The position numbers and the translations under genes are program-made. DNA of 42,488 nucleotides, taken from a virus (lineage: Duplodnaviria; Heunggongvirae; Uroviricota; Caudoviricetes). Below the pieces are notes generated by a model. The model did no database searches, had not been told where the DNA came from, and worked only from the letters and a program-made list of their open reading frames with translations. The stretch lies in IMG/VR virus record IMGVR_UViG_2874945390_000011. One strand, written 5' to 3'. Below are positions 31,849 to 32,349 of the stretch, piece after piece (position 1 is the stretch's first letter; each line of letters opens with the position of its first letter).

Positions 31849-31891
31849 AAAAAACCCGCCGAAACGCTGAGAGATCACAGCGATGGGCGGG
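31849..31891 (-). terminator. rho-independent terminator of the hok-like transcript
   Basis: Minus strand: CCCGCC...inner CGCUG/CAGCG stem...GGCGGG followed by UUUUUUGUUGUUU, about 80 nt after the hok-frame stop. Confidence 0.5.
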
Positions 31892-31967
31892 TTAAGTGCG
31901 GGTGCGTTGAGGATGCCTGACACATCAGAGGTGGGCGGGGATGGGATCAGCTCCCCGCCCGGTCACT

Positions 31968-32122
31968 CTTACTTCCTGGATTCGTAGTCTACGAAGACAG
32001 CGACCTCCGTCTGGCCGGTTCGGATTCGTACCTCACAGAGGTCTTTCCTCGTTACCAGTGGTCACTATGACGGTTAAACAGATGACGATCAGGGCGATTA
32101 ACATCGCCTTTTGCTGCTTCAT
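31968..32122 (-). pseudogene. hok-family type I toxin gene remnant (two frameshifts)
   Basis: ATG at 32122 gives MKQQKAMLIALIVICLTVIVT; the rest of the Hok sequence is in two other frames (LVTRKD, then LCEVRIRTGQTEVAVFVDYESRK), implying a 2-nt loss and a 1-nt gain. Confidence 0.6.
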
Positions 32123-32349
32123 AGCCTGCTTCTCCTTGCCTTTCGGCATGTAAGAGGCTAACCTACATGTGCAAAGCATGAAATTGGCCTCAGATTAATG
32201 TTAAGCGTCTTGCCGGACGCGTAATGTTAACTGGGGCTTTTCTCTATCTGCCTTTTGGTGTTCATGCCTGAAGCAGATAGCCTCAAGCACCCGCAGTCAT
32301 TCTACTTACCTCGCCAATATGAAATCAATCAGAAAGGTGCCCCATAAAA

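What the first reader, a model, noticed from the sequence alone, without database searches (positions are those of the whole stretch)
31849..32345. Decayed hok/sok-type toxin-antitoxin locus
A Hok N-terminus, the remaining Hok residues in two other frames, a leader resembling the hok mRNA upstream region and a strong terminator are all present, but the coding frame is broken twice.
Basis: partly seen in the sequence, partly recalled or inferred. Interest (0 to 1): 0.4.

Follow-up and report, generated by a model that had tools for sequence, protein, structure and literature searches.

The report
Frameshifted prophage hok/sok toxin-antitoxin locus
This is an ordinary, already well-known hok/sok toxin-antitoxin cassette in a defective prophage of a Shigella boydii chromosome; a single 2-base deletion has knocked out its toxin gene, while all its RNA control elements remain intact.

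Summary
[quoted passage not shown] The leader scores 117 bits against Rfam RF01794 (threshold 59). All 521 aligned bases of window 31840-32360 match an annotated intact hokD locus in two close relatives, and the only difference is a 2-bp gap.

There is one lesion, not two: a 2-bp deletion (GACGGCACTG to GAC--CACTG) at 32060|32061, in hok codons 21-22. Hok residues 1-21 lie in one frame and residues 23-51 in one other frame, both at 100% identity. The third frame holds nothing Hok-like. Translation stops at a premature TGA (32035-32033). This gives a 29-aa Hok remnant, or a 48-aa remnant from the in-frame mok start, without the C-terminal domain.

All other elements are present: hok promoter, tac/fbi fold-back, mok and hok ribosome-binding sites, Sok promoter, Sok RNA (32171-32241, + strand) and terminator.

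The deletion junction is absent from 5,426 E. coli genomes, GTDB species representatives, IMG/VR and JGI metagenomes. The exact truncated product is on record from one assembly only, S. boydii CP026836.1, which is the window's source.

Verdict: a recent, strain-private pseudogene of a known system, or less likely an assembly error. Low interest.

The parts
32299..32328 (-). hok (mok-hok) mRNA promoter: -35 TTGATT (32328-32323), 18-nt spacer, -10 TAGAAT (32304-32299). The predicted transcription start is G at 32292.
   Evidence: The consensus scan found 9 of 12 hexamer matches. The predicted start coincides with position 1 of the Rfam RF01794 match.
31853..32292 (-). Predicted full-length hok mRNA, about 440 nt.
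   Evidence: The 5' end comes from the Rfam model and the promoter. The 3' end comes from the terminator hairpin in the MFE fold. The ends are inferred, not mapped experimentally.
32117..32292 (-). hok mRNA leader. It contains tac, the mok ribosome-binding site (GAGG 32191-32188), the Sok target and the hok ribosome-binding site (AGGAG, about 32136-32132).
   Evidence: Rfam RF01794 scores 117 bits against a gathering score of 59, over the full model 1-157.
32281..32292 (-). tac element: the 5'-terminal 12 nt, GGGUGCUUGAGG.
   Evidence: It pairs with 31900-31912 in the MFE fold. Pair probabilities are 0.97-1.0 in both the deleted and the repaired allele.
31900..31912 (-). fbi (fold-back inhibition) element, CCUCAA(C)GCACCC, complementary to tac with a 1-nt bulge.
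   Evidence: Only 3 of 20,000 shuffles of the 3' region gave equivalent complementarity.
32033..32179 (-). Truncated mok ORF (48 aa: MLCTCRLASYMPKGKEKQA plus the truncated Hok). It is in frame with hok and ends at the premature TGA at 32035-32033.
   Evidence: The mok start maps onto annotated mokW of VT2-Sakai and 933W. The intact relative gives a 70-aa product.
32060..32122 (-). hok codons 1-21 (MKQQKAMLIALIVICLTVIVT), the native N-terminal transmembrane part.
   Evidence: tblastn gives 100% identity in frame -2. Pfam HOK_GEF profile positions 1-17 match.
32060..32061 (-). Junction of the 2-bp deletion. GG is missing on the hok strand (CC on the + strand), changing GACGGCACTG to GACCACTG in codons 21/22.
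   Evidence: Alignments A1 and A2 and the difference lists against both relatives.
31969..32058 (-). hok codons 23-51 (LVTRKDLCEVRIRTGQTEVAVFVDYESRK) plus the native TAA stop. They are now out of frame and have no start codon of their own.
   Evidence: tblastn gives 100% identity in frame -3. Pfam profile positions 18-42 match, E=1.6e-14. No ORF of at least 20 aa is listed in that frame.
31849..31893 (-). hok mRNA terminator: an extended hairpin (outer stem AACCCGCC/GGCGGGUU, inner 5-bp stem) followed by a U6 tract.
   Evidence: Sequence and MFE fold. The simple terminator scan missed it because the loop exceeds 8 nt.
32136..32164 (+). Predicted Sok promoter: -35 TTGCCT (32136-32141), 17-nt spacer, -10 TAACCT (32159-32164).
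   Evidence: Both hexamers sit in the same alignment columns as the corresponding sequences of VT2-Sakai sokW (TAACCT identical) and the R1-type locus (TTGCGC, 17 nt, TATCCT). It falls below the threshold of the generic promoter scan.
32171..32241 (+). Sok antisense RNA (about 71 nt): a 15-nt single-stranded 5' tail, a long terminator hairpin and a U-tail. It is complementary to the mok translation-initiation region.
   Evidence: The annotated sokW of AP000422.1 and NC_000924.1 maps onto exactly these coordinates. The fold is -28.6 kcal/mol, z=-4.7, and none of 200 shuffles folds as well.

Best explanation
[quoted passage not shown] It sits in the early-right (replication to Q) region of a defective lambdoid prophage of Shigella boydii (CP026836.1), between queH and rem.

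In intact copies the system works in the established way. A stable hok mRNA is made in a closed form in which its 5' end (tac) pairs with a 3' element (fbi). Slow 3' trimming opens it. Translation of mok, which here is an in-frame 19-codon upstream extension, then allows Hok synthesis. The short-lived antisense Sok RNA can block this by pairing with the mok initiation region and triggering RNase III cleavage. Hok is a roughly 50-aa inner-membrane toxin.

In this strain one 2-bp deletion in codons 21/22 shifts both mok and hok into a frame that stops 8 codons later. The products are a 29-aa Hok remnant and a 48-aa Mok remnant. Both lack the whole C-terminal domain, including Cys30 and the Tyr47 codon. 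The toxin arm is therefore dead. hok mRNA and Sok RNA are probably still transcribed, because every RNA element is untouched.

Shown here: homology, the single lesion, the intactness of the elements, and the rarity of the allele. Inferred: loss of toxicity, continued transcription, and that the deletion is biological rather than an assembly error.
For: Locus identity. Rfam RF01794 scores 117 bits. Window 31840-32360 is identical to annotated intact hokD loci apart from the 2-bp gap, with all 521 aligned bases matching.

Single lesion. all show one break only.

Intact control elements. The hok promoter is present. tac/fbi pair with probability about 1.0 in both the deleted and the repaired allele, and 3 of 20,000 shuffles match this. 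The mok start and the Sok RNA map onto the annotated mokW and sokW of VT2-Sakai and 933W. The Sok hairpin has z=-4.7. The Sok promoter hexamers are conserved with sokW and R1.

Allele rarity. The junction is absent from 7,946 hok-like places in 5,426 E. coli genomes, from GTDB representatives, from IMG/VR and from JGI metagenomes. The exact truncated product occurs on 1 contig, whereas the exact intact 51-aa and 70-aa products occur on at least 1,000 contigs each.

Context of decay. IS600 is inserted in the neighbouring ybcO/DUF1364 gene, and the prophage cro-like gene is also frameshifted.

Loss of function. In R1 hok, 18 of the 20 codons that a single substitution can turn into a stop were recovered as loss-of-function mutations, and even a C-terminal tag abolishes toxicity (PMC9841398). 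A truncated Hok is non-toxic, and a Cys29-Cys46 disulfide is essential for HokB toxicity (bioRxiv 10.1101/2025.08.07.668861).

Functional homologue. hokW-sokW is experimentally functional (PMC8621323).
Against: No reads are available, so an assembly error cannot be excluded. Four of the 10 indels between this prophage and FDAARGOS_944 are 1-bp homopolymer differences, which suggests that at least one of the assemblies carries some indel noise.

Loss of toxicity is inferred from R1 Hok and HokB, not measured for this allele.

The Sok -10 hexamer (TAACCT) matches only 3 of 6 consensus positions and was not called by the generic scan. Its activity is inferred by homology with sokW.
Confidence: 0.82

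Rival explanations
1. Sequencing or assembly artefact. The strain really carries an intact hokD-type gene, and the 2-bp gap is a consensus error in CP026836.1.
For: The allele is on record from one assembly only and is otherwise identical to intact copies. The prophage comparison shows four 1-bp homopolymer indels, which could reflect long-read consensus noise in one assembly or the other.
Against: The deleted GG is not in a homopolymer run of 3 or more (context GTGAC[GG]CACTG), so it is not the typical error type. Multi-base indels are also present in this prophage (2, 4, 7, 12 and 18 bp), along with IS600 insertions, as expected for real Shigella gene decay. The overall indel density is low, 10 in about 22 kb at 99.4% identity.
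Confidence: 0.12
2. The truncated peptide is still active. MKQQKAMLIALIVICLTVIVT+TGNEERPL keeps most of the transmembrane helix and acts as a weaker membrane toxin, like other type I toxins of about 30 aa, so the cassette would still function as a toxin-antitoxin pair.
For: The hydrophobic segment, residues 6-21, is retained. All regulatory RNA elements are retained. From general knowledge, other type I toxins such as TisB, IbsC and ShoB are transmembrane-only peptides of 18-30 aa.
Against: In R1 hok, 18 of the 20 codons that a single substitution can turn into a stop were recovered as suppressors of killing. C-terminal extension or tagging also kills activity (PMC9841398). A truncated Hok control is non-toxic, and the C-terminal disulfide is essential in HokB.
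Confidence: 0.04
3. A long-decayed relic with multiple lesions.
For: The hok frame is interrupted.
Against: There is only one lesion. No substitutions relative to intact copies occur anywhere in the locus. All elements are intact.
Confidence: 0.01

Closest known systems
hokW-sokW (with mokW) of Stx2 prophage Sp5/VT2-Sakai and phage 933W
   Same: It is a prophage-borne hok/sok cassette with 91.6% nucleotide identity over 81% of the locus. mok is an in-frame 19-codon extension of hok in both. The annotated sokW coordinates map exactly onto the predicted Sok here, with the same Sok -10 hexamer. HokW differs from the repaired Hok at one residue (R50E). [quoted passage not shown]
   Different: Here the toxin frame is broken by a 2-bp deletion. 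Five of the 71 Sok positions differ, all in the 5' recognition tail. The 3' UTR and terminator differ. The flanking genes also differ: queH and rem here, against a YgiW/YdeI-family gene downstream in VT2-Sakai and 933W.
hokD (relF) of the E. coli K-12 Qin prophage
   Same: It is the same Hok subfamily. The coding sequence is nearly identical through codon 44, and the gene sits just upstream of rem in a lambdoid prophage.
   Different: The pattern of damage is the mirror image. K-12 hokD keeps an intact ORF but has lost the leader, mok and sok region, which is replaced by relBE. Homology there begins about 20 nt upstream of the ATG. The S. boydii locus keeps every regulatory element but has a broken ORF.
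hok/sok (parB) of plasmid R1
   Same: The architecture is the same: the tac 5' end, the mok ribosome-binding site, the Sok promoter and target, the hok ribosome-binding site, fbi and the terminator are all alignable. The tac/fbi helix is maintained by changes on both strands: R1-type GGCGCUU/AAGCGCC against GGGUGCUU/AA(C)GCACCC here.
   Different: Hok identity is only about 61% in the C-terminal half. In R1 proper, mok is out of frame with hok: the mok AUG is at 116-118 and the hok AUG at 174-176, according to the mutations named in PMC9841398. Here mok is in frame, so one frameshift truncates both. R1's locus is on a plasmid and this one is in a prophage.
Inactivated chromosomal hok loci of E. 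coli (hokA, B, C, E; Pedersen and Gerdes 1999, as summarised in bioRxiv 10.1101/2025.08.07.668861)
   Same: It is another chromosomal or prophage hok copy that is non-functional for killing.
   Different: From my own knowledge of that paper, the K-12 loci are inactivated by IS insertions, point mutations or rearrangements. Here the cause is a private 2-bp coding deletion.

Membership tests
[quoted passage not shown] | Coding sequence homologous to the Hok/Gef toxin (Pfam PF01848) | tested here: met
   The two fragments match HOK_GEF profile positions 1-17 (E=0.0017) and 18-42 (E=1.6e-14). The repaired or relative ORF scores 81 bits against a cutoff of 22. tblastn gives 100% identity to the HokD allele in two frames.
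[quoted passage not shown] | Uninterrupted toxin ORF of about 50 aa | tested here: not met
   A 2-bp deletion at codons 21/22 leads to a premature TGA after 29 codons. The locus is therefore a pseudogene copy, not a functional family member.
[quoted passage not shown] | Conserved structured hok mRNA leader | tested here: met
   Rfam RF01794 scores 117 bits against a gathering score of 59, over the full-length model, E=3.7e-26.
[quoted passage not shown] | Long-range 5'-3' pairing (tac/fbi) that closes the full-length mRNA | tested here: met
   A 12-bp helix with a 1-nt bulge forms between 32292-32281 and 31900-31912 in the MFE fold. Pair probabilities are 0.97-1.0, and 3 of 20,000 shuffles match. 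This is in silico only.
[quoted passage not shown] | Overlapping mok reading frame with its own ribosome-binding site upstream of hok | tested here: met
   GAGG followed after 8 nt by the ATG at 32179, which maps onto annotated mokW. The frame is truncated by the same deletion. Translational coupling was not tested.
[quoted passage not shown] | cis-encoded antisense Sok RNA with its own promoter and terminator, overlapping the mok initiation region | tested here: met
   Positions 32171-32241(+) correspond to annotated sokW. The hairpin has z=-4.7. The promoter hexamers are conserved with sokW and R1. Expression is not testable here.
[quoted passage not shown] | Toxicity of Hok and its neutralisation by Sok; post-segregational killing | not testable with these tools
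   This needs expression assays. Loss of toxicity is predicted from truncation data on R1 Hok (PMC9841398).

The most novel reading that the evidence does not exclude
The toxin arm is dead, but the intact Sok promoter and RNA are retained and expressed as an orphan antitoxin. This would give the S. boydii strain immunity (an anti-addiction effect) against killing by incoming phages or plasmids that carry hok loci of the same Sok specificity. That allele family is very common in Shigella and E. coli, with the intact product on at least 1,000 contigs.
Probability: 0.1. Interest if true: 0.35.

Novelty: already known. Interest (0 to 1): 0.08.

Why it matters
It matters little beyond annotation. 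The locus should be labelled as a hokD/hokW-type pseudogene caused by a single frameshift, with an apparently intact sok, and not as a decayed relic.

It is a small and clean example of how prophage toxin genes are lost in Shigella, alongside IS600 insertions and a frameshifted cro in the same prophage. It is also the mirror image of K-12 hokD, which has an intact ORF but has lost its regulation.

If the deletion is real, the strain offers a natural toxin-null, antitoxin-plus allele for testing orphan-Sok cross-protection.

Tried and rejected
The generic promoter and terminator scan did not call the Sok promoter, because its -10 hexamer matches only 3 of 6 positions. It also missed both terminators, because their loops exceed 8 nt. 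I located these by homology and folding instead.

Exact-junction scans of GTDB representatives, IMG/VR and JGI metagenomes found nothing. I take this as evidence of rarity, not as a failed search.

NZ_CP026836.1 is not in the annotated collections, so I could not see how NCBI annotates the locus.

The supplementary tables of PMC9841398 are not held, so the exact positions of the loss-of-function stop codons in R1 hok could not be listed.

I considered programmed frameshifting that would restore Hok and rejected it. The junction is unique among thousands of otherwise conserved loci, and frame -3 has no start codon of its own.

I looked for a second hok copy in the window and found none.

I initially recalled that mok is always out of frame with hok. 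The check showed that mok is in frame here, in hokW and in the R1-type plasmid locus I fetched, and out of frame in R1 proper according to the published coordinates.

Full report
**What is there.** On the minus strand of 31849-32328 lies a complete hok/sok-type cassette. The Rfam model RF01794 ("sok", which actually models the hok mRNA leader on the sense strand) matches 32117-32292(-) over its full length at 117 bits, against a gathering score of 59 (E=3.7e-26). An ATG at 32122 opens MKQQKAMLIALIVICLTVIVT, and the frame then runs into TGNEERPL and a TGA at 32035-32033. The next frame reads LVTRKDLCEVRIRTGQTEVAVFVDYESRK followed by a stop. The third frame holds nothing Hok-like.

**How the frame is broken.** A megablast of 31840-32360 against 5,426 complete E. 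coli genomes found homologous loci in 4,713 of them, usually annotated hokD. The best hit, FDAARGOS_943, spans 523 bases against my 521. In the alignment every column is identical except one 2-bp gap, GACGGCACTG to GAC--CACTG, in codons 21/22. The relative encodes an intact 51-aa HokD, WP_014532198.1.
- tblastn places Hok residues 1-21 in frame -2 and residues 23-51 in frame -3, both at 100% identity.
- Pfam HOK_GEF profile positions 1-17 and 18-42 split the same way.

There is one break. Across 30753-33282 the deletion is the only difference from FDAARGOS_944.

**Regulatory anatomy.** All of these elements are present.
- *hok promoter:* TTGATT, 18 nt, TAGAAT at 32328-32299. This puts the transcription start at 32292, which is position 1 of the Rfam model.
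- *tac/fbi:* the 5'-terminal 12 nt (tac, 32292-32281) pair with 31900-31912 (fbi) in the MFE fold of the predicted 440-nt mRNA. Pair probabilities are 0.97-1.0 in both the deleted and the repaired allele. Only 3 of 20,000 shuffles of the 3' region give such complementarity. Compared with an R1-type locus, the helix is kept through changes on both strands.
- *mok:* it starts at 32179, after GAGG at 32191-32188. It is in frame with hok, as in the annotated mokW/hokW of VT2-Sakai and 933W. One deletion therefore truncates both products, to 48 and 29 aa. In R1 proper the published coordinates place mok out of frame.
- *Sok:* the annotated sokW maps exactly onto window 32171-32241 (+). It has a 15-nt single-stranded 5' tail and a long hairpin (-28.6 kcal/mol, z=-4.7). 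It is preceded by TTGCCT, 17 nt, TAACCT at 32136-32164, and these hexamers align with those of sokW and R1 Sok. Five of the 71 Sok positions differ from SokW, all in the 5' recognition tail.
- *Terminator:* the hok terminator is an extended hairpin with a U6 tract at 31849-31893.

**Source and context.** The exact 48-aa truncated product is on record from a single contig, CP026836.1 (GCA_002950135.1). Its sequence matches the window exactly over 29033-35179. Two papers name this record as Shigella boydii, an ATCC strain.
- *Prophage position:* the cassette lies in a lambdoid prophage between queH (32350-33036) and rem/DUF1367. It sits downstream of the replication genes and is co-oriented with them. 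In the relatives the same prophage is integrated next to ybhA/modC.
- *Signs of prophage decay:* an IS600 copy at 29489-30752 interrupts the ybcO/DUF1364 gene, and a second IS600 lies at about 40396-41662. The cro-like gene is split by 1-bp and 4-bp deletions.

**Rarity.** The deletion junction is absent from all 7,946 hok-like places in the E. coli genomes, where the best matches are 76 of 78 bases because they carry the two extra bases. It is also absent from 185,579 GTDB species representatives, from IMG/VR and from JGI metagenomes. The exact intact 51-aa and 70-aa products each occur on at least 1,000 contigs, mostly Shigella and E. coli. The deletion is therefore recent and private, or it is an assembly error.

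**Real or artefact.** The deleted GG is not part of a longer homopolymer. The prophage differs from FDAARGOS_944 by only 10 indels in about 22 kb. Six of these are multi-base and four are 1-bp homopolymer differences. I judge a real mutation more likely (about 0.8) than an error (about 0.12), but only reads or resequencing can settle this.

**Consequence.** In R1 hok, 18 of the 20 codons that a single substitution can turn into a stop were recovered as loss-of-function mutations. Even an 8-aa C-terminal tag or read-through of the stop codon abolishes toxicity (PMC9841398). A truncated Hok control is non-toxic, and a Cys29-Cys46 disulfide is essential in HokB (bioRxiv 10.1101/2025.08.07.668861). 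The remnant here lacks everything after residue 21, including Cys30 and Tyr47. The toxin is very probably dead, and this is an inference. Sok and the hok mRNA are probably still made, which is also an inference.

**Comparison and verdict.**
- *Closest system:* hokW-sokW of Sp5/933W is 91.6% identical at the nucleotide level. It is experimentally functional and aids phage release (PMC8621323).
- *Mirror image:* K-12 Qin hokD has an intact ORF but has lost its leader, mok and sok to relBE.
- *Background:* hok genes are known to be enriched in prophages, and chromosomal copies are often inactive.

Nothing here departs from known biology. The locus is a single-hit pseudogene of a well-known system. 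Interest is low.

Noticed in passing
window 36048-36270 (-): The prophage's Cro/CI-family (cro-like) gene is also frameshifted. The relatives encode a 75-aa protein. The window has 1-bp and 4-bp deletions at 36187 and 36193, which split the gene into 33-aa and 64-aa ORFs.
   Followed up: partly
window 29489-30752 (+) and about 40396-41662 (-): There are two IS600 copies, each with ORFs of 100 and 272 aa. The first is inserted into the ybcO/DUF1364 gene, which is reduced to 80 aa from 96 aa in the relatives.
   Followed up: partly
window 32117-32292 (-): Rfam family RF01794, named 'sok antitoxin', matches the hok-mRNA sense strand and ends at the hok start codon. In effect it models the hok leader. 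The real Sok RNA is on the opposite strand at 32171-32241.
   Followed up: yes
window 35146, in ORF 34788-35564 (-): There is an in-frame copy-number difference of a TCTTCC hexamer repeat. The window has 6 bp fewer than FDAARGOS_943 and 12 bp fewer than FDAARGOS_944. The ORF is a 258-aa replication-region protein with no Pfam hit.
   Followed up: no
window 31984-31986 (-), within GACUACGAAUC: The Tyr47 codon of the now untranslated Hok C-terminus sits in a CUACGAA context. This resembles the TadA A-to-I editing site reported for hokC, hokD and hokE (Tyr to Cys46). It is preceded by the perfect complement UUCGUAG.
   Followed up: no
window 39182-39370 (+) and 28189-28496 (-): isrK (64.8 bits) and C4 antisense RNA (76.3 bits) lie adjacent to each other in the prophage, and there is a cluster of four tRNA genes. 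In the relatives the four are annotated Ile, Arg, Thr and Gly.
   Followed up: no
window 17605, 26331, 36187, 36821: Four 1-bp indels relative to FDAARGOS_944 fall in C5 or A7 homopolymer runs. At 17605 it is the relative that is annotated as frameshifted. These may be consensus errors in one assembly or the other.
   Followed up: partly
window 32350-33036 (-): A prophage-encoded epoxyqueuosine reductase QueH (PF02677, 220 bits) lies immediately upstream of hok/sok. This queH-hok pairing recurs in many E. coli prophages.
   Followed up: no
window 32171-32192 (+): All five differences between this Sok and SokW cluster in the single-stranded 5' recognition tail (GCAAAGCAUGAAAUUGGCC here, GUUCAGCAUGGAUUGAGCC in SokW). 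This suggests a distinct Sok specificity variant.
   Followed up: no
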